A DNA stretch of 64,000 nt from Patescibacteria group bacterium (GCA_048617235.1 JBMCHT010000003.1:17958-81957); one strand, 5' to 3'. Positions 3,599 through 54,342 are shown, counted from the first letter of the stretch. The notes: generated by a model from the sequence alone, not told the origin. Translations and numbers: made by a program.

Positions 3599-4228
3599 TT
3601 ACTTCCGCGCAAGGAACTCGCGCCCCTTGCCGACATCAATGTTGATCGGAACGTCTTGCTCGCAAAGCGGACAAGTTGCCTCGTCGTATGCGTCGAACTC
3701 CACGTTCACGAGAGCGGTGAGCTTCGAAACATCGGCCACGTCTTGTGGCCTAATTCCTCCACGGTTGCAGAGGACGCCGAGACCGATGACGTTGCCACCG
3801 ATTTCTCGCGTAGCTTCAATCACCTTTTTGGCGGAGCCACCGGTAGTGAGAACATCCTCTACAACCAGAACGTTCTTGCCGGCAACAATCTTGTCGTAGC
3901 CTCGTTTGATGATGAAGTCTCCTCTGCCCTCAGACTTCTCGGCGTAAACCCCAAGCACCTCGTGAGCCTTCATCTCTGAGAGATGATACGCCGTCCACTG
4001 GGAGAGAATCACGCCGCCGATTGCCGGAGCGATGACGACCTCCACATTGTCGTCCGTGAACCGTTCAGCAATTGAAAGGCAGAGGCGTGACGTTTCCGCG
4101 GTGTGCGGATAAACCGCATCCTTGTTGACATACGCCGTGCCATGTTTACCGGACGTGTAGACTATGTGGCTATCGGTGATGACTGCACCGACCTTGCCTA
4201 GGATTTGCAGGACATCTTGCTCGTTCAT
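3599..4228 (-). CDS. pyrE: Orotate phosphoribosyltransferase (type I PRTase)
   Basis: PRPP-binding motif VLVVEDVLTTGGS. Length 209 aa. Sits directly after pyrF. GGAGG SD 4-5 nt upstream. GC-rich codon usage. Confidence 0.75.
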   Translation of the reverse strand: MNEQDVLQILGKVGAVITDSHIVYTSGKHGTAYVNKDAVYPHTAETSRLCLSIAERFTDDNVEVVIAPAIGGVILSQWTAYHLSEMKAHEVLGVYAEKSEGRGDFIIKRGYDKIVAGKNVLVVEDVLTTGGSAKKVIEATREIGGNVIGLGVLCNRGGIRPQDVADVSKLTALVNVEFDAYDEATCPLCEQDVPINIDVGKGREFLARK

Positions 4229-4929
4229 ACCACCACCTCCATAGCGTTCGGAGAAATCTCCTCCTCGATCTGACAGAGCGCATCCACCGGATCAGTTGCC
4301 TGCGTGATTTGCCGTCCGACAACGAGATGAGTTGAGCCGGAAGCGATCGCGCCCGCCGGTGTATCCACTCGTTTTTGATCATCGGTTGCCTTGCCTGGAG
4401 AACGAACACCCGGCGTGATGAACTTCAGTCCCTGAAGTTCGGACCTCTTGGCGAGAATCCCGACCTCTTTGGGCGAACACACGATGCCGTGAACGCCCGC
4501 GAGTTTCGCGAGACGTGCGAGGTAAAGCACTTCTGCCTTGGACGGTTGTCCATGCAAAAGGTGCGCCTGTTCCTCGCCAAGCGAAGTGAGAACCGTGATT
4601 GCGTAGATCTCCGACGGTCCCGCTTCCACCGCAGCCATCATCATTTCGATCTCGCCAGAGGCGTGAACGGTGAGAATATCGGCTCCGGATTCGGCGATTG
4701 CCTTCGCACGGAGCTTAACGGTGTTCGGAATGTCGTGAAGCTTGGCGTCCACCCAGATGCGACGGGCGCCTGCGTCCCGAAGTCGTTGAACGACATCAGG
4801 TCCTTGCTGATCGAACACGTTGTGAATCTTGATGGCATAAACCCAATCACCAACCTTGGAGGCAAGCTCCAAGCACTGATCGAGGCTCAGCTCATCGACC
4901 GCCAGAACGATACGATTTGAGTCAGACAT
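4225..4929 (-). CDS. pyrF: Orotidine 5'-phosphate decarboxylase
   Basis: Catalytic motif VDAKLHDIPNTV (D-x-K-x-x-D-I-P-N-T). 234 aa. SD GAAAGGAG 9 nt upstream. GC-rich. Confidence 0.8.
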   Translation of the reverse strand: MSDSNRIVLAVDELSLDQCLELASKVGDWVYAIKIHNVFDQQGPDVVQRLRDAGARRIWVDAKLHDIPNTVKLRAKAIAESGADILTVHASGEIEMMMAAVEAGPSEIYAITVLTSLGEEQAHLLHGQPSKAEVLYLARLAKLAGVHGIVCSPKEVGILAKRSELQGLKFITPGVRSPGKATDDQKRVDTPAGAIASGSTHLVVGRQITQATDPVDALCQIEEEISPNAMEVVV

Positions 4930-5090: not shown

Positions 5091-5102
5091 GTAAATACGA
5101 TG

Positions 5103-5483
5103 TGGAGATGGCGGGAATCGAACCCGCGTCTGGTAAAGATTTAACAATTTCTCTACAGGTATAGTCTGTTTACAAGTTTTAAATCTAAACGGTTATTAAC
5201 AAACAAAATCCATTCAGATCGAGTTCCTTAATCTTAAACGTTAAGCAGAACCAATTAACGCTCCAGTTCGGTTTATATGACACCCATCAGATCCGGCCGA
5301 ACTCCTGATCAGATAGACGCCGGCTTAGGCTAAAGCGTAGGCCGGAGTAAAATACGGTGAAACCACCGATTTTACCTTTTGAGATAAGTTTGCACTTATA
5401 CAGTGTGTCGGAGTTTTTCGAGTTATCCGACATTCTCGACCTGCCAATTGCTAAAATCTACACCATCAAGGCCGATCATCCCC
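5103..5483 (-). ncRNA. ssrA: tmRNA (SsrA)
   Basis: Minus-strand transcript starts GGGGATGATCGGCC and ends GCGGGTTCGATTCCCGCCATCTCCA, the tRNA-like acceptor/T-arm halves. An internal reading frame ends ...P-A-Y-A-L-A-stop (GCC TAC GCT TTA GCC TAA), the classic tag ending. Located directly downstream of smpB. CCA not encoded. Confidence 0.8.
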
Positions 5484-5488
5484 ATTAA

Positions 5489-5935
5489 TTATTTATATCT
5501 ATTTTTCAAAGTTCGACTAATTTCTCTTTGGGCTTCGCGTTTTTTAATCACTTCTCGTTTATCATGTTCTTTTTTACCACGAGCCACCGCCAATTCCAAT
5601 TTCAACCACCTACCCGAATTATACAGCTTAAGTGGGATTGCTGTCAATCCCGGTCGAGATAAGTGTCCTATTAATTCTTTTATTTCCGCTTTTTGTAAAA
5701 GTAATTTCCGATCTCGAGCCGGATCATATTCTAAAGTATTATTATTCGGCTGGTAAGCCGGAACCTGAGCCCCGATTAAAAACGGTTGTCCGGCTTTAAT
5801 GGTAATATAAGAACCGGCTAGAGAACCATGTCCTTGGCGAATAGATTTAACCTCTTGACCGGTCAATTCCAAACCGGCCCGGTATTTCTCTAACGGTTCA
5901 TAATTAAACAAAGCCTTTTTATTAACAATTGCCAT
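5489..5935 (-). CDS. smpB: SsrA-binding protein SmpB
   Basis: Conserved SmpB core (LELTGQEVKSIRQG...SLAGSYI) and C-terminal basic tail. Start set at MAIVNKK. Sits next to tmRNA. Confidence 0.9.
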   Translation of the reverse strand: MAIVNKKALFNYEPLEKYRAGLELTGQEVKSIRQGHGSLAGSYITIKAGQPFLIGAQVPAYQPNNNTLEYDPARDRKLLLQKAEIKELIGHLSRPGLTAIPLKLYNSGRWLKLELAVARGKKEHDKREVIKKREAQREISRTLKNRYK

Positions 5936-6048
5936 AATGTTTAAGTGTAACAAAAGTCAGCTAAAACGGAAATCTAAATATTGGGGTTGACCTTTGAGTT
6001 GAAATCAGTTACCATTTAACCACTTGCCACTTTAGTGGCCGGTTTTAA

Positions 6049-6588
6049 TTGAACTTAATATATAACATATATTTGAAGCCTCAAATTCGTATAAACAATC
6101 AAATAAATTCACCGGAACTTAGGGTTATTGACGATAAAGCCGGCAATTTGGGAGTCTTATCTTTAACTCAAGCTTTGAAGTTAGCTGAGGATAAGGGTTT
6201 GGATTTAATCGAAATCTCTCCCACAGCCACTCCACCGGTAGCTAAAATAATGGATTTTGGCAAATGGCAATACGAAGAAAAAAGAAAACTCAAACAAAGT
6301 AAAGCCAAAAGCCAAACCACTGAAACCAAATCTTTACAAATAAAGATTGCTACCGGAGAAAACGATTTGAAGTTAAAAGCCAATAAAGCCGGTAAATTTT
6401 TACGAGCGGGGCATCGAGTAAAATTGGAATTGTTTTTACCCGGTCGCACCAAGTATATGGATAAAAACTTTCTACACGAACGTTTAAATAAGTTTTTGGA
6501 AATGGTTCCCGAAGAATATAAATTAGCCGAACCAATAAAAAAGAATCCCAAAGGACTTTACCTAATAATAGAAAAAGCTAAAAAATAA
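6049..6588 (+). CDS. infC: Translation initiation factor IF-3
   Basis: INNQINSPELRVIDDKAGNLGVL matches the IF-3 N-domain. Heads the infC-rpmI-rplT operon. The true start may be a non-AUG codon nearby. Confidence 0.85.
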   Translation: MNLIYNIYLKPQIRINNQINSPELRVIDDKAGNLGVLSLTQALKLAEDKGLDLIEISPTATPPVAKIMDFGKWQYEEKRKLKQSKAKSQTTETKSLQIKIATGENDLKLKANKAGKFLRAGHRVKLELFLPGRTKYMDKNFLHERLNKFLEMVPEEYKLAEPIKKNPKGLYLIIEKAKK

Positions 6589-6590
6589 TT

Positions 6591-6785
6591 ATGAAAACCA
6601 ATAAATCATATACCAAAAGATTGAAAGTAACCAAAAATGGTAAAGTTTTGGCTCGCCGACCGAACCAGAACCACTTTCGTGCCAAGAAAGATCGTCAAAC
6701 CAAGCTGGAATTAAAAAAACACCGAGTGCTTAGTTTGTCTCAGAAAATAATTAGACGCTTTTTACCCGGTCATAATGCTAAATAA
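6591..6785 (+). CDS. rpmI: 50S ribosomal protein L35
   Basis: 64-aa basic protein (MKTNKSYTKRLKVTKNGKV...) in infC-rpmI-rplT order. Confidence 0.9.
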   Translation: MKTNKSYTKRLKVTKNGKVLARRPNQNHFRAKKDRQTKLELKKHRVLSLSQKIIRRFLPGHNAK

Positions 6786-6796
6786 TAATAAATATC

Positions 6797-7144
6797 ATGC
6801 CTAGAGTAAAACGAGGAGTAATTTCCAACAAAAGAAGAAGAAACACCCTAGCCCAAGCCAAAGGTTACCGTTTTGGTCGCAGTAAAAAAGAACGCCCAGC
6901 CAAAGAAGCTATTTTACATGCCGGCTCACATGCTCTGGCTCATCGCCGAGACAAGAAAAACGACTTCCGTCGTCTATGGCAAATTCAAATCAATGCCGCT
7001 ATTCGACCTTTGGGCTTATCCTACAGTCGCTTTCTGGATCTTTTAACTAAAAAACAAATAGGCCTTAATCGAAAAATGTTGGCTAATTTAGCTCAAACAG
7101 ACAGCGATACTTTTGCTAAAGTGGTCAGTGAAGCTCAAAAATAG
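6797..7144 (+). CDS. rplT: 50S ribosomal protein L20
   Basis: MPRVKRGV... N-terminus typical of bL20. 115 aa. Confidence 0.92.
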   Translation: MPRVKRGVISNKRRRNTLAQAKGYRFGRSKKERPAKEAILHAGSHALAHRRDKKNDFRRLWQIQINAAIRPLGLSYSRFLDLLTKKQIGLNRKMLANLAQTDSDTFAKVVSEAQK

Positions 7145-7147
7145 TTT

Positions 7148-8518
7148 TTAATCTAAAATCACCTTTTGTCCCGGATCGGGAGCTATAGCCTTAATTCCGA
7201 GATAATCGTTAATTCTCTGAGCTAAAGCCCAAGAAGATTTTGGCTCCCCCATAACCGTAAAAACAGTTTGGAGACTTTCAGTGGCCTCAGCTACTAAATT
7301 TAATAAACCGGCCGAATCGGCATGGGCTGAATAACCTGAAATAGTTTCTATTCTAGCCGCTACCGGCACTTCAGTACCTAAAATTTTAACCACCTTGACT
7401 CCATCTTGTAAAACTCTCCCTAAACTGCCGGCCGCTTGGTAACCAACCAAAAGCAGGGTATTTTTTTTATCCGGTAAAAACATTTTTTCATGATGAATAA
7501 TCCGACCACCATTGGACATACCGGAGCCGGCAATAATAATTTTACGAGCCGGAGCCGAAGCAATCGCTTTAGATTCATCAGTAGTCTTAGTTAAATGTAA
7601 TTGCGGAAAATGAAAAATATTTCTTTCAGTGGCCAGATCCTCAACTGATTCTTTTAAATAATTTTTATAACGACGATAAACTTCAGTCACCGCTATGGCC
7701 AACGGTGAATCCAAAAAAACCGGCACCAAAGGAATCTCCGACCGAGCCATTAAGCCGGAGATTTCAAAAAGTAATTGTTGTGTTCTTTCAATTGAAAAAG
7801 CCGGAATCATTAAAGTCCCCCCTTGATTTAAAGTTTCTTTAATTATTCTTTGTAAATGCTCTCGTCTATGTTGACGATCTTCATGTTCCCTGTCTCCATA
7901 AACACTTTCCATTATTAGATAATCAGCACCAACAACTGAATCGACATCCCCCAATAAAGGCGCCGGTGAGCTACCTAAATCTCCGGTAAAAAATATTCGA
8001 CGCTCAAAGCCTTCTATGGCAAAAATACTAGAACCCAAGATATGCCCGGCATTTTTTTGCTCCACTTCCAAACTGCCAATGGTAAATTTTTCATAATAGT
8101 CTTTGGTTTGCCATAAAGACATAGTTTGTTCCACATCCGCCAAAGAATAAAAAGGATCTTGACCGGTTCGTTTGGCTTCTTTAGACATCACCCCAATACT
8201 GTCTGTCATTATTAATTCGGCAATATCCTTAGTTGGCGGAGTAGATATAATTTGTCCTCGAAAACCATCTTTAACCAATTTGGGAATTCGGCCAACATGA
8301 TCCAAATGACCATGAGTGATTAATAAAAAATCTATAGTGGACGGATCATAAGGAAAATCTGCTCGGTTATCTTCTTCACAAACCTTGCCCCCTTGAAACA
8401 AACCACAGTCCACCAAAACCCGTAGCCCCTCCGGGCTTTCCAATAAAAAATTAGCCCCGGTTACCGAACCGACTCCGCCGTGAAAAGTTAAGGAAAATTT
8501 TTGCTTAGTGTTTTTCAT
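7148..8518 (-). CDS. MBL-fold metallo-hydrolase, beta-CASP family ribonuclease (RNase J / CPSF-like)
   Basis: HxHxDH motif (ITHGHLDHVGRIP) and FTGDLG. Length and C-terminal region fit a beta-CASP RNA-processing nuclease. Start set at MKNTKQ. Confidence 0.7.
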   Translation of the reverse strand: MKNTKQKFSLTFHGGVGSVTGANFLLESPEGLRVLVDCGLFQGGKVCEEDNRADFPYDPSTIDFLLITHGHLDHVGRIPKLVKDGFRGQIISTPPTKDIAELIMTDSIGVMSKEAKRTGQDPFYSLADVEQTMSLWQTKDYYEKFTIGSLEVEQKNAGHILGSSIFAIEGFERRIFFTGDLGSSPAPLLGDVDSVVGADYLIMESVYGDREHEDRQHRREHLQRIIKETLNQGGTLMIPAFSIERTQQLLFEISGLMARSEIPLVPVFLDSPLAIAVTEVYRRYKNYLKESVEDLATERNIFHFPQLHLTKTTDESKAIASAPARKIIIAGSGMSNGGRIIHHEKMFLPDKKNTLLLVGYQAAGSLGRVLQDGVKVVKILGTEVPVAARIETISGYSAHADSAGLLNLVAEATESLQTVFTVMGEPKSSWALAQRINDYLGIKAIAPDPGQKVILD

Positions 8519-8957
8519 TTTTAGCCGGTTGTTTATAAATATTAAAAGGGGTATACCAAAAAGCCAAGCCAGCAACCAAACCACCAACCGTATCCATAAA
8601 AAGATCGGTCACGGTATCCAACCAGCCCACTTGCAAAGTTTCCAGGGTTTTAAAAACAGGATAACCGGGCCAGATCTTATAGGCTCCGAATTCAAATAAC
8701 TCCCACAAGCCACCGATAAAAAAAGAAAAACCAACGGCTATTAACATTACAATTAAAAATTTAGGATAAACTTTATGGATATCAAAATAAAAAGATAAAA
8801 CGGCTGTAGCTACAGTCGCTCCGGCTATTAAATGGACTATTAAATCAAACCACCACCAACGCCAATATAAATAATATTCAAAAGCAAAATAATTAAGACC
8901 GGCCACCAATACCAGACCTAATAACACTCCCCACCAAACCGGTCTTTTAAATGTCAT
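8505..8957 (-). CDS. Hypothetical integral membrane protein (4-5 TM helices, Trp-rich)
   Basis: Hydrophobic helices throughout. No recognisable motif. Confidence 0.5.
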   Translation of the reverse strand: MTFKRPVWWGVLLGLVLVAGLNYFAFEYYLYWRWWWFDLIVHLIAGATVATAVLSFYFDIHKVYPKFLIVMLIAVGFSFFIGGLWELFEFGAYKIWPGYPVFKTLETLQVGWLDTVTDLFMDTVGGLVAGLAFWYTPFNIYKQPAKNEKH

Positions 8958-9198
8958 TAAAAGTATTTTAGACTATTAAATTATCTATCGCAAACAAATA
9001 ATCACCCAAGATCCGGGTATTTCAAACCAAATCAAGGATGATCATTTAAAGACTGCTTGGGATACTACCCTAGGATAAATCCAAGTGGGTGTCCGCAACC
9101 TTAAACCACGGCTTAAAGTAATATAGGACTCCCTAAGGGTAAAAACGATCTAGATAATATCCAAGCAGTCCATCTCCATTATACACCAAAAAAAATAT

Positions 9199-9594
9199 CT
9201 ACTCAATTCTGATCTGATGCAAAATTTCCTTAATTTTAACCAAAGCTTGACCGGGCATAATCTCGGTTTTTAACCAGTAATCAATAGCTCCTTTTTTAAT
9301 ATACTTATCTTTAATTCCTTCTTCATATAAATTACTTAAAATAACCACCGGCACATCTTTGGTATCTTTGTCTTTTTTTAAAAACTTCAACACTTGACCG
9401 CCATCCATTTCGGCCATTACCAAATCCAAAAGGATAATATCCGGCTCTCCGGCTTTGGCAATAGCCAAACCGTCTTGACCATTGGTGGCTATCATTAAAT
9501 CCACCGAATCATCCAAATCAAAAAGAGTTTTATAAATATGAACTTGATCGGGATCATCTTCAATTAAAAGAACTCTATCTAATAGTTTTTGCAT
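9199..9594 (-). CDS. Single-domain response regulator (CheY-like receiver)
   Basis: LLIEDDPD...ILLDLVMAEMDG...VVILSNL receiver signature. 131 aa, no output domain. Confidence 0.85.
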   Translation of the reverse strand: MQKLLDRVLLIEDDPDQVHIYKTLFDLDDSVDLMIATNGQDGLAIAKAGEPDIILLDLVMAEMDGGQVLKFLKKDKDTKDVPVVILSNLYEEGIKDKYIKKGAIDYWLKTEIMPGQALVKIKEILHQIRIE

Positions 9595-9598
9595 AAAA

Positions 9599-11800
9599 TT
9601 ATTGTACCAAAGGAAAACTTAAAATGAAAATGGAGCCTTGACCGGCTTCGGATTCAAAACTAATTTGACCTCCCGGCTGGGCTTCGGTTATTTTTAAAAC
9701 TATAAACAAACCCAAACCCGAGCCATCGGTGTATAAATCAACCGCTTGGCGGCCACGAGCAAATTTTTTAAATATTTTATCTTGATCCTCAGCCGGAATC
9801 CCAATTCCGGTATCGCTAATTTTTATCATAACCCTACCCTTATCTTCTGTTAAATCAACCGTTACTTGACCGACCGGTGTGTAAATTAAGGCATTATCTA
9901 TAACATAAGCCAGGGCTTGTTTTAGATAATCGGCATGAGCTTTAATCTTTAACTCCTCAGACGGTTTATTAAATACCAATTCCAAATCCTTATCTTGAGC
10001 TTTAGTTGAGTTGGCTTTAACCACCTCGGCAACCAAATTAACTACATCAACTACTGCCAAGCGTTCCTCCCCCAAAGAAAAATGCCCGCTATCTATTTCT
10101 GAAGCTAATAAAATATCTCGAATTATCTGTTCCAATTTCCTGGATTTATAATAAATATTATCTATAAATTGTTTTTGTTTTTCCGGCGGTAGTTTGTCTA
10201 TACTACCTTCTTTAAACATAGAAATGGTTCCCAAGATAACCGAAACCGGGGTTCGTAATTGATGAGAAGCAATATTTAAAAATTCCGAACGCATTTTTAA
10301 CAATTTTTCCAGATGTTTTGTTTTAGCTCGTAATTCCGATGTTTGTTCATCCACCCTCTCCTGTAGGGTTTGATTAAACAATCTAATTTGCTCATATAAT
10401 AAGGAATTATCTATGGCAATACCGGCCGAAGCCGCCAAGGTTTGCAGCAACATAATATCTTCTTGAGAAAAAGGATTGCCGGAAGCTTTCTCACCCAAGA
10501 CCACCAAACCCACCAAGCGCGAACCGGAGATTAAAGGCATTAAACCGGCGGCGGGTATTTTCTCCAGATTATTTTTCCAAATTTCCGCAGATTGACTGCC
10601 GTCGGCTATATCTTGTTGGTAATTAATTAGCTCATCAGCTATCAATATTTGATTATGTTTTTCCAAAAATTCTCTTGCAACTTGAGTAAAAACCAATTGT
10701 TTAATATTTAAATCCTCAGCTTCAAAATTAAGTTGGAAAACTTGATGATCTTTATCCGCCTCTTTATTTAAAATTATTAAACCAGCTTTGGTTAAATCAA
10801 ATTCCCTATAAACAGTTTTAACGATTAAATCCGCTATTTGTTGTAAATCATTAAGATAATTTAATTCTCGAGCCAAACGATTAACGGATTCTTGAACCGA
10901 ATATAAAGAAACAAAAAAATATTTATTGGCCCAATCTTGAATCAGATTATAGAAATTATATAACAGGAAAACAAAAAACGGAGCCATTAACAAACCGGTT
11001 AAATAGGAAGCCGGAGTAAAAATTCCACCAAAAAAATAAATATAAAACCAAGCTATTAAATAAAAAAGGATATAAGTAAAAGCAGCCGCCAGAACATATA
11101 AATAAAGCCGTCTGAAGACGACTCTAATATCCATTAAACGGTAACGGAGGATGGCGTAGGCGACCGCCACAACATAAAAAGAAACCAAGATATTACCTAT
11201 AGGTAAAATTGGGATATCATACCAAAGAAAATAATTAGTCGAACCACCGGTAAAACCCACTATCATTCCCACTAATAAATATTTTATCTGACTTTTCACT
11301 ACTCCGGATAGCCGAGAATGATATTTGAATAAATAATAAGTGGCCAGCACGACATAGCCAAACCAAATAGGTAAAAAAATATTGAATAAGATCCCGGGCA
11401 CCGGCCAGAAATCAAACATTGCTCTGGAAGTAATTCCCGTAATAAAATGATTACTAAATAAATTTAAAACTAAAAACAGAAAAAATAAAAAATAACTACC
11501 CAATATAAAAAGTTTATAACTTTTGTTTATTTTTAATAAAACAAATACAAAATGTAAGTAAGCTACCGAGATAAAAATAGCCCAACTCATAAAAAATCTA
11601 GACCAAAACAAAGCAGTTTGAGCATCGGTTGACAATTGCCAGAAAAAATAACCCAGACTCCAACCGGCTATCAAAAAAGAAAACAAAGCAAAAGTTATAT
11701 ATAAAAGACGTTTAGGATTACGCAATAAAACAAAAAAACCCAAAACCAAACTGGTAATGAAATTTATTAAAGCTGATAAGGTGTAAAAAGTAAACAACAT
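9599..11800 (-). CDS. Sensor histidine kinase (multi-TM N-terminal sensor, GAF, HisKA, HATPase_c)
   Basis: About 9 TM helices, a GAF-like middle region, H-box ASHQLRTPVSVI, G-boxes DTGIGIP...GSGLGL. Confidence 0.88.
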   Translation of the reverse strand: MLFTFYTLSALINFITSLVLGFFVLLRNPKRLLYITFALFSFLIAGWSLGYFFWQLSTDAQTALFWSRFFMSWAIFISVAYLHFVFVLLKINKSYKLFILGSYFLFFLFLVLNLFSNHFITGITSRAMFDFWPVPGILFNIFLPIWFGYVVLATYYLFKYHSRLSGVVKSQIKYLLVGMIVGFTGGSTNYFLWYDIPILPIGNILVSFYVVAVAYAILRYRLMDIRVVFRRLYLYVLAAAFTYILFYLIAWFYIYFFGGIFTPASYLTGLLMAPFFVFLLYNFYNLIQDWANKYFFVSLYSVQESVNRLARELNYLNDLQQIADLIVKTVYREFDLTKAGLIILNKEADKDHQVFQLNFEAEDLNIKQLVFTQVAREFLEKHNQILIADELINYQQDIADGSQSAEIWKNNLEKIPAAGLMPLISGSRLVGLVVLGEKASGNPFSQEDIMLLQTLAASAGIAIDNSLLYEQIRLFNQTLQERVDEQTSELRAKTKHLEKLLKMRSEFLNIASHQLRTPVSVILGTISMFKEGSIDKLPPEKQKQFIDNIYYKSRKLEQIIRDILLASEIDSGHFSLGEERLAVVDVVNLVAEVVKANSTKAQDKDLELVFNKPSEELKIKAHADYLKQALAYVIDNALIYTPVGQVTVDLTEDKGRVMIKISDTGIGIPAEDQDKIFKKFARGRQAVDLYTDGSGLGLFIVLKITEAQPGGQISFESEAGQGSIFILSFPLVQ

Positions 11801-11850
11801 ACAAAACCGGTGGAATGTTATTATTATAACACGCCACCGGCTGATGAAAA

Positions 11851-12786
11851 CTATTCAACCTGCCCCACAGCTACGCCGTGAATTTTGTGCGGTTCGTAAA
11901 CCAGTCGAACCGACACAAAACCGGATCGAAGGAGGATTCTCGCCAAACGATCCGGCCAACGATAAATCATCGGCCAGTCAATCACTTGGTACAAGAACCA
12001 TCGCTCACTGTTGGGAGCAATGTTGCAGGTCAGGAAAACTCCCCCCGGCGGCAAGGCCGAGTGAATTTGACTCAGCAGTTTCTCCGCCTTGTCATCAGGC
12101 AGATAATCCAGCAACCCCATCATCTCTACGATGTGAGGAGCGAATTCCCGACTGATTTCCAAGACATTGGAAACCGTCTCCCGGCGAACCTCCACTTGAG
12201 AGGAAACACCGGAATCTTGAGCCAACCCTTGAGCAAAGTCCAGGGCTGTCTGGTCACGATCAACCAACAGCACTCGAACCGTTACCCCTTTGGCTTTGAA
12301 ATCTGCCACCGTCTTAATGACCGACTCCGCCGACCCGCAAGCTAGTGAGAGAATCCGAATTTCCGATTCCCGTCGAAATCGATTGACTGCCTCCGCCAGC
12401 TCGGCACAAGCAATTTTGTATCGATTGCGAACCGCCTGGGCGTTTCGCATACCGATCCAAAAATCGTCAACCAAATTTCCTGAGAAATCGTGGTTATAGA
12501 TCAAGTGAAGCGCCCTCCAAGAAGCCGCTCCTTGACGGATGGCTAAAGTCTTTCGACCCCAGCCATCAAACCACGAAGAATTATAGATCGGGGAACCCCA
12601 ACCCATAACCCTATAGACAGTCTTCTTGAAGAAAGTCACCAGCGCCAACACCATCATCACCGGAGCCACCAGATGAAACCAGAGACTCTGTTCAAACTCC
12701 AACCGATCGATTGGTCGAAGTTTTTCTCTTTTGACTTCCCTCACCGAACAATTCGGTAAGGAAGCCATTTCTAATTTATAAGACAT
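11851..12786 (-). CDS. Putative class I SAM-dependent methyltransferase with N-terminal TM helix, on GC-rich island
   Basis: Motif I-like ILSLACGSAE. GC-rich. SD GAGAGGAGG 6 nt before the internal ATG at 12786 (MSYKLEMASL); the ORF track begins at 12873. Confidence 0.5.
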   Translation of the reverse strand: MSYKLEMASLPNCSVREVKREKLRPIDRLEFEQSLWFHLVAPVMMVLALVTFFKKTVYRVMGWGSPIYNSSWFDGWGRKTLAIRQGAASWRALHLIYNHDFSGNLVDDFWIGMRNAQAVRNRYKIACAELAEAVNRFRRESEIRILSLACGSAESVIKTVADFKAKGVTVRVLLVDRDQTALDFAQGLAQDSGVSSQVEVRRETVSNVLEISREFAPHIVEMMGLLDYLPDDKAEKLLSQIHSALPPGGVFLTCNIAPNSERWFLYQVIDWPMIYRWPDRLARILLRSGFVSVRLVYEPHKIHGVAVGQVE

Positions 12787-12915
12787 AGGAGTCCTCCTCT
12801 CAAGGTTGGTTTTTTGTTGACAAACACCTAGACCACTTGAAGTATAACACATATTAAAAAATAAATCAAACAAAAGAAAAAGCGTCTATTGGTTACCCCA
12901 ACAAACGCTTTGAAA

Positions 12916-14067
12916 TCAAAAACTGAAAGACATGCCGACAGTCAAAATTTCCGAAGAAAATTTTACCCTCGGATGCCCGGCTCGAACCGAACCTTGGCCA
13001 TAAGCGACAAAAATTGACCGCTCAAGCTTTGATCCAATTTTTGTCAACTGAAAAGCCAAATTCCAACCGGACATATCGGGAATCAGGGTACTGACTCGAT
13101 TATCCGGCACCGCTTGAGTCATGTAATTCCAACCCAGACTCATTCGCCAGTTATCGTTCAGCTCTGCCTTCATTCCCAAGTGATATGTCCGATTGTCTTT
13201 CCAGCCCAAAGGTAAACCAATGGCCGGCAAACGATTAAAATCCAATCGCAATTCTCGATTACGACCGGAATAACCGTAATGAGCCCAATCAGCCAACAGG
13301 ATTATCCGAGGAGATATTCGGTATTCCAGTCCTACCTGGAGCCTATCAGGAAAAGTGTATTGGCTGTCAAACCGATCACTTATCCCTAAAGGTAGATTGG
13401 TCCGACCGGACAAGTTGGCAGTTTGAGTTGAAGTGTAAGAAAGCCCCAATCTCCATTGTGAAGACATTTGGTATTGCAATCCCACTTGCCAACCCAAACC
13501 AAAACCGATAGCCCCACTCTCGGCTTTTAACGGCCACCTAATGCCGGCTAACTCCAGCGGTGCTTCATAGACAAGCTCAGCTTGTCCGACATGAACAGTC
13601 AAACCCAAGGCCAAGCGTTGACTGGCTTGCCAACCAAAGCCGATTGAAGCATTTACCAGAGATAATTCAGACCTGGTATTCATGAACCACTGTTCGGGAT
13701 TTCTATCAAATTCCGCTCCCAAACCGTAAGGAACACAAATACCACCGGCCAAAACTAACCTATCCGTTAGTGGTAAAACCCCGGAAACAAAAGGTAGATC
13801 ATACGGTTCTCCCCCGGACCGACGATTACCCTTTTGACCTCGGTAATGAAAACGAGCATCAACTCGTTCCCATCCAACCATTAAAGCTTTTGATTGAGCT
13901 CCGGCCCAAGCAGCCGGATTGTAGTAGTGACCACCGAAAGGATCAGCAGTCGCCACATAAGCGCCACTGGTACCGATAGCCGGTCCCACTCCGCCTACTC
14001 GATTAAGCCCGCCGGCTTCAGCTATCATCGGGAAGATAGCCAAAACCAAAACTATCAAGAATCTCAC
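12916..14067 (-). CDS. Outer-membrane beta-barrel transporter, FadL/OmpP1/TodX family
   Basis: GTG start with SD AAGGAGAG. Signal peptide MRFLIVLVLAIFPMIAEA. N-terminal hatch with NPA motif (HYYNPAAWAG). Alternating amphipathic beta-strands. C-terminal ...GMSFSF aromatic terminus. GC-rich. Confidence 0.7.
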   Translation of the reverse strand: MRFLIVLVLAIFPMIAEAGGLNRVGGVGPAIGTSGAYVATADPFGGHYYNPAAWAGAQSKALMVGWERVDARFHYRGQKGNRRSGGEPYDLPFVSGVLPLTDRLVLAGGICVPYGLGAEFDRNPEQWFMNTRSELSLVNASIGFGWQASQRLALGLTVHVGQAELVYEAPLELAGIRWPLKAESGAIGFGLGWQVGLQYQMSSQWRLGLSYTSTQTANLSGRTNLPLGISDRFDSQYTFPDRLQVGLEYRISPRIILLADWAHYGYSGRNRELRLDFNRLPAIGLPLGWKDNRTYHLGMKAELNDNWRMSLGWNYMTQAVPDNRVSTLIPDMSGWNLAFQLTKIGSKLERSIFVAYGQGSVRAGHPRVKFSSEILTVGMSFSF

Positions 14068-14100
14068 CTGACTCTCCTTTTTTGTTAAGTACCTATACCT

Positions 14101-14137
14101 TTTTTGTTATACAAAAGATTTACACATTTCACAACCT
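14101..14137 (-). promoter_or_regulatory. Candidate sigma70-like promoter for the OMP gene (TTGTGA-17 nt-TATAAC, minus strand)
   Basis: Minus-strand sequence GGTTGTGAAATGTGTAAATCTTTTGTATAAC sits about 35 nt upstream of the SD/GTG of the OMP gene. Confidence 0.3.
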
Positions 14138-14144
14138 AAAAATC

Positions 14145-53280: not shown

Positions 53281-54342
53281 ATGCGACTGGTAACTGCAAC
53301 TTTCCTTTTTTGGGGGGTGATGATGGTGGCGCTGGGACAACCCGGGCAATACACCGAGTTTGCCCCGGAACTCCTCGAAGAGGGGCGCGATTTTGTCGTG
53401 CTCCGGACGGAAGACTCGTCAGTGAAAGTCTTTCGTGAAGTGGAGGATTACTTCGGACCCGACTCCCGACTGTCTAATGGTCTTTATGACCTGAAGACCA
53501 AGGGAGCCACGACCTCGCCCTGTTTCAACGGCGGGCCAGCTATGTACTACGAGCACATTTTCAACGGTGCAGCCGTTGATAACTGGCGCTCAGAGTACGC
53601 TCCTGAGTTGAATGATCAGATCTTCACCGATCTGACAAACAACTCGGTCAAGGTGGTCTGGCCGAGAGCAACCTCCTTGTGGAACCTCAGGTCCAGCATC
53701 ACCTATGAGTTAGGTGATGACGGGGTAGACTTCACCTTTGAAGTCAAAACTCCGGCCACAGAGGCAGAAGTGGCCGAGATTGCCCCGTTGGGATGGTTTG
53801 GGTGTATGTTCGCAAGCTACACCCGTTCCATTCATAGCTCCGACAGGAGCTTCCAATTCTATGGGGTGGAATCCCAGGTCATGGATTTCCGCTGGTTCCA
53901 AGTCTCCATTCCCAACTTCGGCTGGAAAAAGTTTGGAGACTCAAAGGAAAGAGGAACTATCGGGCCTTACAGGGTTGATCCCCTTCCGTACGAAGAAGAG
54001 GCTGGCGGCATAAACGCACATCAGAGGGAGGATCTACACAGTCTCTCCCCAATGTACTTCAGTGTCGTACAGCCCAACGAGGGCTCACCGCCGATGATAT
54101 TTGCCATGCTTTTCGACCAGACACAGTCTGTTCGATTTGCATTGTTCGGAGGAGATGAGTTAGGCGGTCCCACCGCCTACGACTGGCACTTCATCGTCCG
54201 GCAGCCCCAGCCAGATACGAAGTATCGACTGAGGGCGAAGCTCATCTATGAGCCTCTACCGGAAGAAGGGATGTCCGAGCGTAAATTACGTTCGTATATC
54301 CAACAAAAGTGGTTTTGGTGGTGGTGGTTTCTCCACCATTAA
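53281..54342 (+). CDS. Secreted hypothetical protein on GC-rich island (C-terminal aromatic tail KWFWWWWFLHH)
   Basis: Signal peptide MRLVTATFLFWGVMMVALG. 353 aa. GC-rich with strong SD and its own terminator. No family recognised. Confidence 0.55.
   Translation: MRLVTATFLFWGVMMVALGQPGQYTEFAPELLEEGRDFVVLRTEDSSVKVFREVEDYFGPDSRLSNGLYDLKTKGATTSPCFNGGPAMYYEHIFNGAAVDNWRSEYAPELNDQIFTDLTNNSVKVVWPRATSLWNLRSSITYELGDDGVDFTFEVKTPATEAEVAEIAPLGWFGCMFASYTRSIHSSDRSFQFYGVESQVMDFRWFQVSIPNFGWKKFGDSKERGTIGPYRVDPLPYEEEAGGINAHQREDLHSLSPMYFSVVQPNEGSPPMIFAMLFDQTQSVRFALFGGDELGGPTAYDWHFIVRQPQPDTKYRLRAKLIYEPLPEEGMSERKLRSYIQQKWFWWWWFLHH

What the first reader, a model, noticed from the sequence alone, without database searches (positions are those of the whole stretch)
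11840..14140. GC-rich island carrying a FadL/OmpP1-type outer-membrane beta-barrel and a SAM-methyltransferase inside a CPR-like, AT-rich genome
The 383-aa ORF at 12916-14067 has every hallmark of the FadL/TodX/OmpP1 outer-membrane transporter family. These are a cleavable signal peptide, an N-terminal hatch with the conserved NPA motif (HYYNPAAWAG), alternating amphipathic strands and a C-terminal ...SFSF. Both it and the adjacent methyltransferase are visibly GC-richer than everything around them and both carry canonical SD sequences (AAGGAGAG-GTG; GAGAGGAGG-ATG). Native genes in the window have none. The rest of the window (no L30, SD-less genes, pili plus ComEC, reduced trigger factor) looks like Patescibacteria, which are generally regarded as lacking an outer membrane. 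So the OMP is either a recent transfer from a diderm donor with a repurposed function, or evidence that the contig is chimeric. The island also sits exactly where infA-rpmJ-rpsM-rpsK-rpsD-rpoA-rplQ would normally follow map.
Basis: partly seen in the sequence, partly recalled or inferred. Interest (0 to 1): 0.75.

Follow-up and report, generated by a model that had tools for sequence, protein, structure and literature searches.

The report
FadL-type barrel in mobile Patescibacteria signalling module
A real outer-membrane-type fatty-acid channel gene sits in a bacterium thought to have no outer membrane, and it is neither an assembly error nor a one-off recent import: it belongs to a conserved, mobile four-gene set (channel, methyltransferase, membrane sensor kinase, response regulator) shared by several Patescibacteria.

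Summary
ORF 12916-14067(-) is a genuine FadL/TodX-family barrel: Pfam PF03349 94.9 bits, AF2 pLDDT 92.9, TM 0.84-0.87 to E. coli FadL. It has a signal peptide, an NPA hatch and a C-terminal Phe.

It and the adjacent methyltransferase (MT) are GC-richer (0.48-0.50 vs 0.38). They are among only 5-6 of ~72 window genes with a strong Shine-Dalgarno site.

- The MT belongs to a family spread across Patescibacteria. In 51 of 55 evaluable species genomes it is followed directly by a 7TM histidine kinase.
- In 6 of 47 species genomes, as in this window, a FadL-like gene lies directly upstream.
- The window's real unit is therefore FadL-like / MT / 7TM-GAF kinase / receiver (9199-14140).
- Two genomes share this block at 80-93% DNA identity inside unrelated flanks, so it moves as a unit.
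- The barrel is under purifying selection (dN/dS 0.09). Its nearest relative is only 37% identical, so no donor is identifiable.

The MT is homologous to the MT of a phcBSRQ-like operon. My best reading is a module that makes, senses and conducts a hydrophobic methylated metabolite. Which membrane holds the barrel in a presumed monoderm is unresolved, and that is the interesting part.

The parts
14068..14140 (-). Upstream region of the FadL-like gene. It holds a promoter-like TTGTGA-17-TATAAC with a TG extension, a 12-nt direct repeat CCTTTTTTGTTA x2 (plus-strand reading), and the SD AAGGAGAG 6 nt before the GTG start.
   Evidence: Sequence read; repeat D12; SD duplex -8.0 kcal/mol.
12916..14067 (-). 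FadL/OmpP1/TodX-family beta-barrel, 383 aa. It has a Sec signal peptide (cleavage after AEA18), an N-terminal hatch with NPA at residues 50-52, amphipathic strands and a C-terminal Phe.
   Evidence: PF03349 94.9 bits. AF2 pLDDT 92.9, pTM 0.89. Foldseek top hits are E. coli FadL at TM 0.84-0.87. Outward strand face has hydropathy +1.03, inward face -1.09.
12879..12911 (-). Intrinsic-terminator-like hairpin (14 pairs) followed by a T-rich tail, directly after the FadL-like stop codon.
12787..12869 (-). Upstream region of the MT: promoter-like TTGATT-17-TATACT (12869-12841) and the SD GAGAGGAGG before the ATG at 12786.
11851..12786 (-). Membrane-anchored class I SAM-dependent small-molecule methyltransferase, 311 aa, with one TM helix at residues 35-53. 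It belongs to the PF12147-related (PhcB-like) family typical of Patescibacteria.
   Evidence: Homologues at 45-50% identity across CPR; 18 of 20 hit PF12147. hhalign 98.7% to the MT of a phcBSRQ-like operon. TM helix. AF2 pLDDT 85.9; nearest folds are small-molecule O-/C-MTs.
11823..11850 (-). Promoter-like site TTTTCA-16-TATAAT (10/12, TG-extended) ahead of the kinase. There is no SD before its ATG.
9599..11800 (-). Sensor histidine kinase, 733 aa: HisKA_7TM membrane domain (about 8 hydrophobic segments), GAF, HisKA and HATPase_c. Native AT-rich composition.
   Evidence: Pfam; TM segments; GC3 0.30. Directly follows the MT in 51 of 55 evaluable species genomes.
9199..9594 (-). Receiver-only response regulator, 131 aa.
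   Evidence: PF00072 63.8 bits. Follows the kinase in at least 19 related loci.

Best explanation
WHAT IT IS. The flagged genes are the first half of a four-gene module: a FadL-like barrel, then a membrane-anchored PhcB-like SAM methyltransferase (MT), then a 7TM-GAF histidine kinase (HK), then a receiver-only response regulator (RR). It spans window 14140 to 9199 on the minus strand. The module is a conserved accessory unit of some Patescibacteria and has moved horizontally as a block.

SHOWN:
- The barrel is a bona fide FadL-fold protein with a signal peptide, an NPA hatch, a lipid-facing hydrophobic belt and a C-terminal aromatic residue.
- It is under purifying selection.
- The MT-HK pairing is near-universal in CPR members of this MT family.
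- The FadL-like gene joins the pair in about 13% of species.
- Two genomes share the whole block at 80-93% DNA identity in unrelated contexts.

INFERRED MECHANISM:
- The MT, anchored at the cytoplasmic membrane, methylates a hydrophobic, probably fatty-acid-derived metabolite. This is analogous to PhcB making methyl 3-hydroxy-fatty-acid esters.
- The 7TM kinase senses that lipid, or a related one, in the membrane and signals through the receiver protein.
- The FadL-like barrel is exported by Sec and provides the passage for the hydrophobic compound through a lipid barrier by lateral diffusion, as FadL-family channels do.

UNRESOLVED. Which barrier this is remains open. It could be an unrecognised outer lipid layer of these cells, or the outer membrane of a diderm host at the attachment site.
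For: Barrel identity.

CPR-resident subfamily: 29 cluster representatives at E<1e-30. Named members are Vogelbacteria, Buchananbacteria and 'Patescibacteria group'. Contexts hold FtsH, S1, aaRS, PilB, MreB and PBP.

Linkage: the HK is immediately downstream of the MT in 51/55 loci. FadL is immediately upstream in 6/47, plus the window. FadL-centred loci L073/L074 and the Hainich groundwater MAG (H43; loci L002/L071) also carry a SAM-MT and a HisKA_7TM kinase within 10 kb. Two of them also carry a 3-hydroxyacyl-CoA dehydrogenase.

Block mobility: L011 and L013 are 80-93% identical from about 90 nt upstream of the FadL ATG to the RR stop, with unalignable flanks holding unrelated genes. A serine recombinase and an IS200 transposase lie beside the module in L008.

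Selection: dN/dS is 0.09 for FadL, 0.035 for the MT, 0.03 for the HK and 0.05 for the RR.

Phc analogy: the CPR MT profile matches the MT of a Paraburkholderia MT-HK-RR-RR operon at 98.7% probability (E 2e-16), with family-specific motifs. JGI names one family member a '3-hydroxypalmitic acid methyl ester biosynthesis protein'. The phcBSRQ operon logic is described in PMC7694676.

Folds and precedent: the MT fold resembles small-molecule O-/C-MTs. A FadL-family protein exporting fatty-acid-derived autoinducers is known: ExFadLO, Martinez 2013, cited in PMC6377657.
Against: - Patescibacteria are regarded as lacking an outer membrane (PMC12102498), so there is no known membrane or BAM machinery for the barrel.
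- I could not scan the full genomes for BamA or other OM genes.
- The FadL-like gene accompanies only 6 of 47 MT-HK loci, so MT-HK works without it.
- In the window it has its own promoter and terminator, so the coupling is genomic, not operonic.
- The MTs beside FadL-like genes in L073/L074 belong to a different MT family.
- The kinase sensor domain (HisKA_7TM + GAF) differs from that of the Paraburkholderia kinase (MASE8-like), and only the catalytic core aligns.
- No PhcA-like regulator was seen.
- The chemistry of the MT substrate is entirely inferred.
- Some module-bearing MAGs carry non-CPR NCBI labels ('Gammaproteobacteria' for L005/L008) that I could not verify.
Confidence: 0.5

Rival explanations
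1. Lipid scavenging, not signalling. The barrel is an uptake channel for host-derived fatty acids or lipids, which CPR cannot synthesise. It may be planted in the outer membrane of a diderm host at the contact site. The neighbouring MT and kinase are only co-mobile or regulatory neighbours.
For: - The FadL fold and hatch are closest to the E. coli long-chain fatty-acid importer.
- The gene has its own promoter and terminator.
- A 3-hydroxyacyl-CoA dehydrogenase lies next to it in L073/L074.
- The C-terminal aromatic beta-signal is conserved in 26/29 members, implying use of a BAM machine that the CPR cell is not known to have.
- CPR dependence on host lipids is established knowledge (own knowledge).
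Against: - The linkage to an MT plus a 7TM kinase recurs in all 9 CPR-context loci examined, and the block moves as a unit. That is more than chance neighbourhood.
- No delivery mechanism for a folded or unfolded barrel into another cell's periplasm is known.
- At least one relative of these lineages (Minisyncoccus) has an archaeal host with no outer membrane (own knowledge).
Confidence: 0.2
2. The two GC-rich genes are a recent horizontal acquisition from a diderm donor that has not yet ameliorated. The OMP is a passenger with a repurposed or no function.
For: - GC, GC3 and tetranucleotide deviation.
- Strong SD sites only on island genes in an otherwise SD-less genome.
- FadL is a diderm family.
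- One subfamily member (P0143) sits in a context not typical of CPR.
Against: - The best homologue is 37% identical among 1.84 billion representatives.
- The MT's relatives are CPR proteins.
- The same GC3 and SD signature marks cassettes in other CPR genomes whose proteins are only 30-50% identical. This is incompatible with a single recent unameliorated event.
- dN/dS of 0.09 shows a maintained function.
- There are no tRNAs, integrases or flanking repeats at the window island.
Confidence: 0.08
3. The contig is a chimeric mis-assembly that joins CPR sequence to a diderm fragment.
For: Only the compositional shift.
Against: - The GC-rich stretch is an internal 2.3-kb segment with native-type genes on both sides.
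- The MT-HK junction reproduces a pairing seen in 51/55 independent genomes.
- The full four-gene order recurs in separate assemblies from JGI, ENA and NCBI.
- NCBI holds the protein on contigs up to 336 kb.
- Two further GC/SD islands in the same window would each need their own pair of chimeric joins.
Confidence: 0.02
4. These particular Patescibacteria lineages are not strict monoderms. They possess an outer lipid layer, and a means to insert barrels, that imaging of other CPR has missed. The FadL-like protein is one of its ordinary residents.
For: - The barrel keeps every feature of a membrane-embedded, BAM-dependent OMP: a hydrophobic belt, a C-terminal Phe/Trp and a signal peptide.
- It is under purifying selection.
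Against: - No other OMP or OM-biogenesis gene was seen in the 64-kb window or in about 20 flanking regions examined.
- The gene is patchy (about 13% of MT-HK species) and mobile, unlike a core envelope component.
- Cryo-ET of CPR cells has shown a single membrane plus a surface layer (own knowledge).
Confidence: 0.12

Closest known systems
E. coli FadL (PDB 1T16) and the TodX/TbuX/CymD hydrophobic-compound channels
   Same: - Pfam PF03349 membership.
- Predicted barrel plus N-terminal hatch superposes at TM 0.84-0.87 on FadL and 0.69-0.74 on TodX, TbuX and CymD.
- NPA hatch motif, signal peptide and C-terminal Phe.
   Different: - 15-18% sequence identity.
- About 40 residues shorter, so probably shorter loops.
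- Scores 29.7 bits against the 585-bit cutoff of the FadL equivalog model, so it is not an orthologue.
- Encoded in a lineage with no known outer membrane.
- Linked to a methyltransferase and a two-component system, not to fad genes.
Ralstonia Phc quorum sensing (phcB-phcS-phcR-phcQ) and the phcBSRQ-like operon of Paraburkholderia graminis pPHS1_P (L075)
   Same: - Gene order is SAM methyltransferase, then membrane sensor kinase, then response regulator(s).
- The MT family is shared with the Paraburkholderia operon MT (hhalign 98.7%, with motifs AQAVRNR, GLLDYL and N-x-E...W-x-x-IYR).
   Different: - The CPR MT is 311 aa with one TM anchor, against about 468 aa.
- The kinase sensor is HisKA_7TM + GAF, not MASE8-like.
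- The regulator is receiver-only.
- No PhcA was seen.
- A FadL-like barrel is attached, which the Phc operon lacks.
- Homology to authentic Ralstonia PhcB was not tested directly.
ExFadLO of Pseudomonas aeruginosa (FadL-family exporter of oxylipin autoinducers)
   Same: A FadL-family barrel serving a fatty-acid-derived cell-cell signal system. It is a precedent for export as opposed to uptake.
   Different: It is known only from a classical diderm. No sequence comparison was made here, and its signal chemistry (oxygenation) differs from methylation.
BamG (Bacteroidota BAM accessory barrel) and FilD (pilus-system FadL-like)
   Same: FadL-like fold; weak HMM hits (25.6 and 23.3 bits).
   Different: Far below the family cutoffs (250 and 970 bits). 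Structural match to BamG chains is TM 0.63-0.66, lower than to FadL. There is no BAM or Fil context.

Membership tests
FadL/OmpP1/TodX outer-membrane transporter family (Pfam PF03349) | Family HMM match above the curated threshold | tested here: met
   94.9 bits vs cutoff 29.7, E 4.8e-27, profile positions 20-355 of 421.
FadL/OmpP1/TodX outer-membrane transporter family (Pfam PF03349) | Monomeric beta-barrel (14 strands in FadL) plugged by an N-terminal hatch domain | tested here: met
   AF2 model pLDDT 92.9, pTM 0.89. Foldseek TM 0.84-0.87 to E. coli FadL over about 420 columns. This is a predicted structure, and strands were not counted on coordinates.
FadL/OmpP1/TodX outer-membrane transporter family (Pfam PF03349) | Conserved NPA motif in the hatch | tested here: met
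   N50-P51-A52 in HYYNPAAWAG. N50 is at least 90% conserved in the 60-sequence alignment A3. Some CPR clades have NVA or NIA.
FadL/OmpP1/TodX outer-membrane transporter family (Pfam PF03349) | Sec signal peptide and C-terminal aromatic beta-signal of BAM substrates | tested here: met
   MRFLIVLVLAIFPMIAEA|GG and ...GMSFSF. A C-terminal F or W occurs in 26 of 29 subfamily members. This rests on sequence inspection, not a dedicated predictor.
FadL/OmpP1/TodX outer-membrane transporter family (Pfam PF03349) | Residence in an outer membrane and transport of hydrophobic substrates by lateral diffusion | not testable with these tools
   The amphipathic strand pattern (outward +1.03, inward -1.09) fits a lipid-embedded barrel. 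The host lineage has no known outer membrane.
E. coli-type long-chain fatty acid transporter FadL (NCBIfam NF007988 equivalog) | Equivalog HMM score above cutoff | tested here: not met
   29.7 bits vs 585. It is a family member, not a FadL orthologue.
BamG (NCBIfam NF053685) | Equivalog HMM score above cutoff; BAM-complex context | tested here: not met
   25.6 bits vs 250. TM 0.63-0.66 to BamG chains, lower than to FadL.
Phc-type quorum-sensing operon (phcBSRQ) | Signal-synthase SAM methyltransferase homologous to PhcB | tested here: inconclusive
   The profile matches the MT of a phcBSRQ-like Paraburkholderia operon (98.7%, E 2e-16). One family member carries JGI's PhcB-type name.
Phc-type quorum-sensing operon (phcBSRQ) | MT gene immediately followed by a membrane sensor kinase and response regulator(s) | tested here: met
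   Window order is MT 11851-12786, HK 9599-11800, RR 9199-9594. The HK follows the MT in 51/55 loci.
Phc-type quorum-sensing operon (phcBSRQ) | PhcS-type sensor domain and PhcA (LysR) output | tested here: not met
   The sensor is HisKA_7TM + GAF, against MASE8-like in the Paraburkholderia kinase. Only the kinase core aligns. No LysR gene is present in the module.
Phc-type quorum-sensing operon (phcBSRQ) | Signal is a methyl 3-hydroxy fatty-acid ester | not testable with these tools
   Only indirect hints: the MT fold resembles small-molecule O-/C-MTs, and a 3-hydroxyacyl-CoA dehydrogenase lies next to FadL-like genes in L073/L074.
Horizontally acquired genomic island | Compositional deviation from the host genome | tested here: met
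   GC 0.48-0.50 vs 0.38; GC3 0.42/0.55 vs about 0.30; SD sites only on island genes.
Horizontally acquired genomic island | Same block in non-homologous contexts of different genomes | tested here: met
   L011 vs L013: the block is 80-93% identical and the flanks are unalignable. The mobile unit includes the kinase and the regulator, not just the GC-rich half.
Horizontally acquired genomic island | Integration hallmarks (tRNA, integrase, flanking direct repeats) and an identifiable close donor | tested here: not met
   There is no tRNA, integrase or flanking repeat at the window island or in L011/L013. Recombinase and IS200 occur only in L008. The best homologue is 37% identical.

The most novel reading that the evidence does not exclude
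A subset of Patescibacteria builds and uses a true BAM-type outer-membrane barrel. Either these ultra-small cells have an outer lipid layer that nobody has recognised, or they implant a FadL channel into the outer membrane of their host to pull out lipids or exchange a lipid signal. In both cases the barrel would be under the control of a Phc-like methyl-ester sensing circuit that travels with it as a mobile cassette.
Probability: 0.25. Interest if true: 0.9.

Novelty: new variant of a known kind. Interest (0 to 1): 0.66.

Why it matters
Patescibacteria make up a large share of bacterial diversity. They are thought to be single-membraned episymbionts that must obtain lipids from hosts. How they do so, and how they sense hosts or kin, is largely unknown.

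A conserved, selected, mobile module points to a concrete and testable lipid-handling or lipid-signalling system in this group. It couples an outer-membrane-type hydrophobic-compound channel with a PhcB-like methyltransferase and a 7TM kinase.

It also poses a sharp envelope question: where does a barrel with an intact beta-signal go in a cell without an outer membrane?

The MT-kinase core is present in the cultured Minisyncoccus archaeiphilus (L029), which offers an experimental entry point.

Separately, the window shows that in these SD-less genomes a minority of accessory genes keep perfect SD sites and high GC3 across deep divergence. That limits the use of GC and SD as indicators of recent transfer in CPR.

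Tried and rejected
- Exact-sequence contig look-up of the window protein found nothing.
- A genome scan with the FadL-like alignment was impossible because it has no conserved 7-10-residue stretch. I anchored on the MT instead.
- The profile search of the word-indexed database was saturated by the 8000-candidate limit and added nothing.
- The AFDB fold library was unavailable.
- The MT family was not found in viral contigs. The barrel has only weak (about 22% identity) hits in phage records. So there is no evidence that a phage carries the module.
- Literature searches for FadL with Patescibacteria, BamA with Patescibacteria, PF12147, and CPR quorum sensing returned nothing relevant.
- BamG and FilD assignments were rejected on score.
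- A general rule that the MT is always GC3-richer was rejected. The MT exceeds its kinase in 72% of loci (p 0.002), but it does not significantly exceed other neighbours (p 0.08). The FadL-like gene does exceed neighbours in 7/7 loci.
- The unannotated genes next to the barrel are not barrels. The L071 407-aa protein is Cys-rich and secreted; the window 150-aa ORF is a small multi-TM protein.
- The idea that the RR-GreA adjacency of L001 is shared by the window was rejected: the 150-aa ORF has no GreA hit.
- The 'Gammaproteobacteria' label of L008 could not be checked because its flanks hold only mobile-element and accessory genes.
Full report
THE OBSERVATION

The ORF at 12916-14067 on the minus strand (383 aa, GTG start) is real. 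It is identical over its full length to an NCBI protein named 'MAG: OmpP1/FadL family transporter [Patescibacteria group bacterium]', seen on contigs up to 336 kb. It matches Pfam Toluene_X (PF03349) at 94.9 bits against a cutoff of 29.7.

An AlphaFold2 model built on 60 relatives is very confident (pLDDT 92.9, pTM 0.89). Its best matches among solved structures are E. coli FadL (TM 0.84-0.87), then TodX, TbuX and CymD. BamG-type barrels score lower at 0.63-0.66.

The sequence shows a Sec signal peptide (MRFLIVLVLAIFPMIAEA|GG), the hatch motif with NPA at residues 50-52, and a C-terminal Phe. The strands have an outward face that is hydrophobic (mean +1.03) and an inward face that is polar (-1.09), as a lipid-embedded barrel should. 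It is not an orthologue of E. coli FadL (29.7 vs 585 bits), nor a BamG or FilD.

The neighbouring methyltransferase (MT) really starts at the ATG at 12786, giving 311 aa as in NCBI.

The composition shift is real:
- GC is 0.48 and 0.50 against a window mean of 0.38.
- GC3 is 0.42 and 0.55 against about 0.30.

The shift is not unique. A pyrE/pyrF pair at 3.6-4.9 kb (GC 0.56) and an orphan ORF at 53281-54342 (GC 0.53) deviate as much or more.

The SD remark is correct and striking. Of about 72 genes, only pyrE, pyrF, the FadL-like gene, the MT, ORF 53281 and one doubtful case have a strong SD. All housekeeping genes lack one.

THE REAL UNIT

The MT is not foreign to the phylum. Its relatives (45-50% identity, 214 hits) carry Patescibacteria names: Magasanikbacteria, Buchananbacteria, Uhrbacteria, Vogelbacteria. 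Of 20 aligned relatives, 18 hit PF12147.

I scanned one genome per GTDB species with the MT alignment and searched the flanks with HMMs. This gave 58 close loci, including the cultured Minisyncoccus archaeiphilus.
- In 51 of 55 evaluable loci, a HisKA_7TM histidine kinase (HK) lies immediately downstream of the MT.
- The four exceptions carry Smithella, Deltaproteobacteria or Dehalococcoidales labels.
- A receiver protein follows the kinase in at least 19 loci.
- In 6 of 47 evaluable loci, a FadL-like gene lies immediately upstream of the MT, either co-directional or divergent.

The window has exactly this order: FadL-like (12916-14067), MT (11851-12786), 7TM-GAF kinase (9599-11800) and a receiver-only regulator (RR; 9199-9594).

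THE VIEW FROM THE BARREL'S SIDE

An exhaustive phmmer search of 1.84 billion cluster representatives found a distinct subfamily of 29 representatives at E<1e-30. They are full-length, 385-404 aa, and at most 37% identical to the window protein.

Named members are Vogelbacteria, Buchananbacteria and 'Patescibacteria group'.

Three members were looked up on their contigs. All sit among FtsH, S1, aaRS, PilB and CDP-alcohol transferase genes. Each has a SAM-MT and a HisKA_7TM kinase within 10 kb, and two also have a 3-hydroxyacyl-CoA dehydrogenase. The MTs in L073 and L074 belong to a different family from the window's.

One member of a divergent-hatch subgroup (P0143) sits beside succinate-dehydrogenase genes, a context not typical of CPR. 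Ordinary Verrucomicrobiota and Lentisphaeria FadLs appear at E about 1e-19.

In a rough NJ tree the CPR-context sequences form two or three subclades of one deep group, and the window protein branches alone.

MOBILITY AND SELECTION

L011 and L013 share the whole block at 80-93% DNA identity. The shared region runs from about 90 nt upstream of the FadL ATG to the regulator's stop codon. Both flanks are unalignable and encode unrelated genes. No tRNA or integrase flanks the block in those loci.

In L008 a large serine recombinase and an IS200 transposase lie next to the barrel gene. In the Hainich groundwater MAG (H43; loci L002/L071) an IS30-type integrase lies between the barrel and the MT-kinase pair.

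In the L011/L013 pair all four genes are under purifying selection. dN/dS is 0.09, 0.035, 0.03 and 0.05 for FadL, MT, HK and RR.

The module therefore moves as a unit and is maintained by selection. A chimeric assembly is excluded for practical purposes, and a decaying passenger gene is too.

THE COMPOSITION PUZZLE

In every genome examined, the FadL-like gene has higher GC3 than its neighbours (7 of 7 loci, mean +0.14). In the five loci with gene calls it has a near-perfect SD (AAGGAGG, -10.6 to -10.9 kcal/mol). In the window the SD is AAGGAGAG (-8.0).

In most FadL-linked loci the MT shares this signature. The adjacent kinase, the regulator and the housekeeping genes do not.

These cassettes are only 30-50% identical at the protein level, so their synonymous sites are saturated. 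A single recent unameliorated transfer cannot explain this.

In the L011/L013 pair, dS is 0.33-0.58 for MT and FadL but 1.0-1.5 for RR and HK. This fits either selection on synonymous sites or a more recent exchange of the GC-rich half. I leave this unexplained.

Its practical consequence is that GC plus SD does not date the acquisition.

MECHANISM

The following parts are shown:
- The MT has one N-terminal TM helix.
- Its predicted fold is nearest to small-molecule O- and C-methyltransferases.
- Its family profile matches the MT of a Paraburkholderia graminis plasmid operon at 98.7% probability (E 2e-16). The match includes motifs outside the SAM core. That operon reads MT (468 aa), sensor kinase (445 aa), RR, RR, which is the phcB-S-R-Q layout.

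In Ralstonia, PhcB makes methyl 3-hydroxymyristate or methyl 3-hydroxypalmitate, and PhcS senses it (PMC7694676, PMC8578825).

The CPR kinase has a different sensor (7TM + GAF) and shares only the catalytic core.

FadL-family barrels conduct hydrophobic molecules, and one of them, ExFadLO, exports fatty-acid-derived autoinducers (reference cited in PMC6377657).

I infer that the module makes, senses and conducts a methylated hydrophobic metabolite. My confidence in this is about 0.5.

In the window the three transcription units look separate. The barrel gene has its own promoter-like site and a strong terminator, and the MT and the kinase each have their own -35/-10-like sites.

THE ENVELOPE PROBLEM

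Patescibacteria are regarded as lacking an outer membrane (PMC12102498; with caveats in PMC8871954). I found no paper that mentions FadL or BamA in them.

Yet the barrel keeps its lipid-facing belt. It also keeps the C-terminal aromatic residue typical of BAM substrates in 26 of 29 subfamily members.

No other outer-membrane gene was seen in the window or in about 20 flanks. I could not scan whole genomes.

Three readings remain open:
- an unrecognised outer lipid layer;
- insertion into a diderm host's outer membrane;
- an unknown assembly route.

VERDICT

The feature is a new variant of known kinds: a FadL-family channel recruited into a Phc-like methyltransferase and two-component module that circulates among Patescibacteria. 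The individual proteins are already auto-annotated in NCBI. As far as I could find, the module and its paradox are not described.

Noticed in passing
window 3599-4929 (-), next to tmRNA 5100-5483 and smpB 5489-5953: A pyrE-like phosphoribosyltransferase and pyrF (OMP decarboxylase) form the most deviant patch of the window (GC 0.56, z 4.5; tetranucleotide z 5.3). Both have strong SD sites. They lie directly beside the tmRNA gene, a classic integration site. This looks like an acquired pyrimidine-salvage/biosynthesis pair in a CPR genome.
   Followed up: partly
window 53281-54342 (+): An orphan 353-aa ORF forms a third GC-rich patch (GC 0.53) with a perfect SD (AAGGAGG). It has a signal peptide (MRLVTATFLFWGVMMVALGQ) and an odd C-terminus (WFWWWWFLHH). 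It has no Pfam or PDB relative.
   Followed up: partly
whole window; L001, L002, L071, L073, L074: There is a two-class gene population. Housekeeping genes have no SD and low GC3. A minority of accessory genes (barrel, MTs, 3HCDH, radical SAM, pyrE/F) have near-perfect SD sites and higher GC3. The pattern is consistent across distantly related Patescibacteria genomes.
   Followed up: partly
L011 vs L013, block about 5340-10500: Within one shared block, synonymous divergence is 2-5 times lower in the GC-rich genes (FadL dS 0.58, MT 0.33) than in the AT-rich genes (HK 1.53, RR 1.03), at similar protein identity. This could be selection on synonymous sites or a two-step exchange.
   Followed up: no
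L029 (Minisyncoccus archaeiphilus PMX.108 chromosome, 1300512-1315453): This cultured Patescibacterium carries the MT plus 7TM-kinase pair (MT 409 bits, HK 486 bits), with no FadL-like gene within the ±7-kb flank examined. It offers an experimental handle on the core of the module.
   Followed up: no
L008 3589-5509: A large serine recombinase and an IS200-type Y1 transposase lie directly beside the FadL-like gene, with a type I R-M methylase further out. A second receiver gene follows the first (10651-11043), then a radical SAM/SPASM gene and another MT.
   Followed up: partly
L002/L071 (Hainich groundwater H43 MAG): The FadL-like gene lies about 10 kb from the MT-kinase pair. Between them are several methyltransferases, radical SAM/SPASM enzymes with small adjacent ORFs (76-91 aa), a TPP enzyme, an MFS transporter and an IS30-type integrase. 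This looks like a RiPP or small-molecule biosynthetic island.
   Followed up: no
L073 4531-6574 and L074 4791-6661: A 3-hydroxyacyl-CoA dehydrogenase and a class I MT (not the PhcB-like family) lie divergent to the FadL-like gene, with a HisKA_7TM kinase a few kb away. This is a fatty-acyl chemistry hint.
   Followed up: partly
L005, L006, L008, L011, L019 and others (record titles): NCBI organism labels of several TPA_asm MAGs ('uncultured Gammaproteobacteria', 'uncultured Candidatus Saccharibacteria') sit oddly with the Paceibacteria-type module and its relatives, and may be unreliable. Close MT homologues in MAGs labelled Smithella, Deltaproteobacteria and Dehalococcoidales (L033, L041, L042, L051) lack the adjacent kinase.
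   Followed up: no
window 14076-14109: A perfect 12-nt direct repeat (CCTTTTTTGTTA, 22 nt apart) lies in the short intergenic region between ndk and the FadL-like gene, overlapping the promoter/SD region.
   Followed up: no
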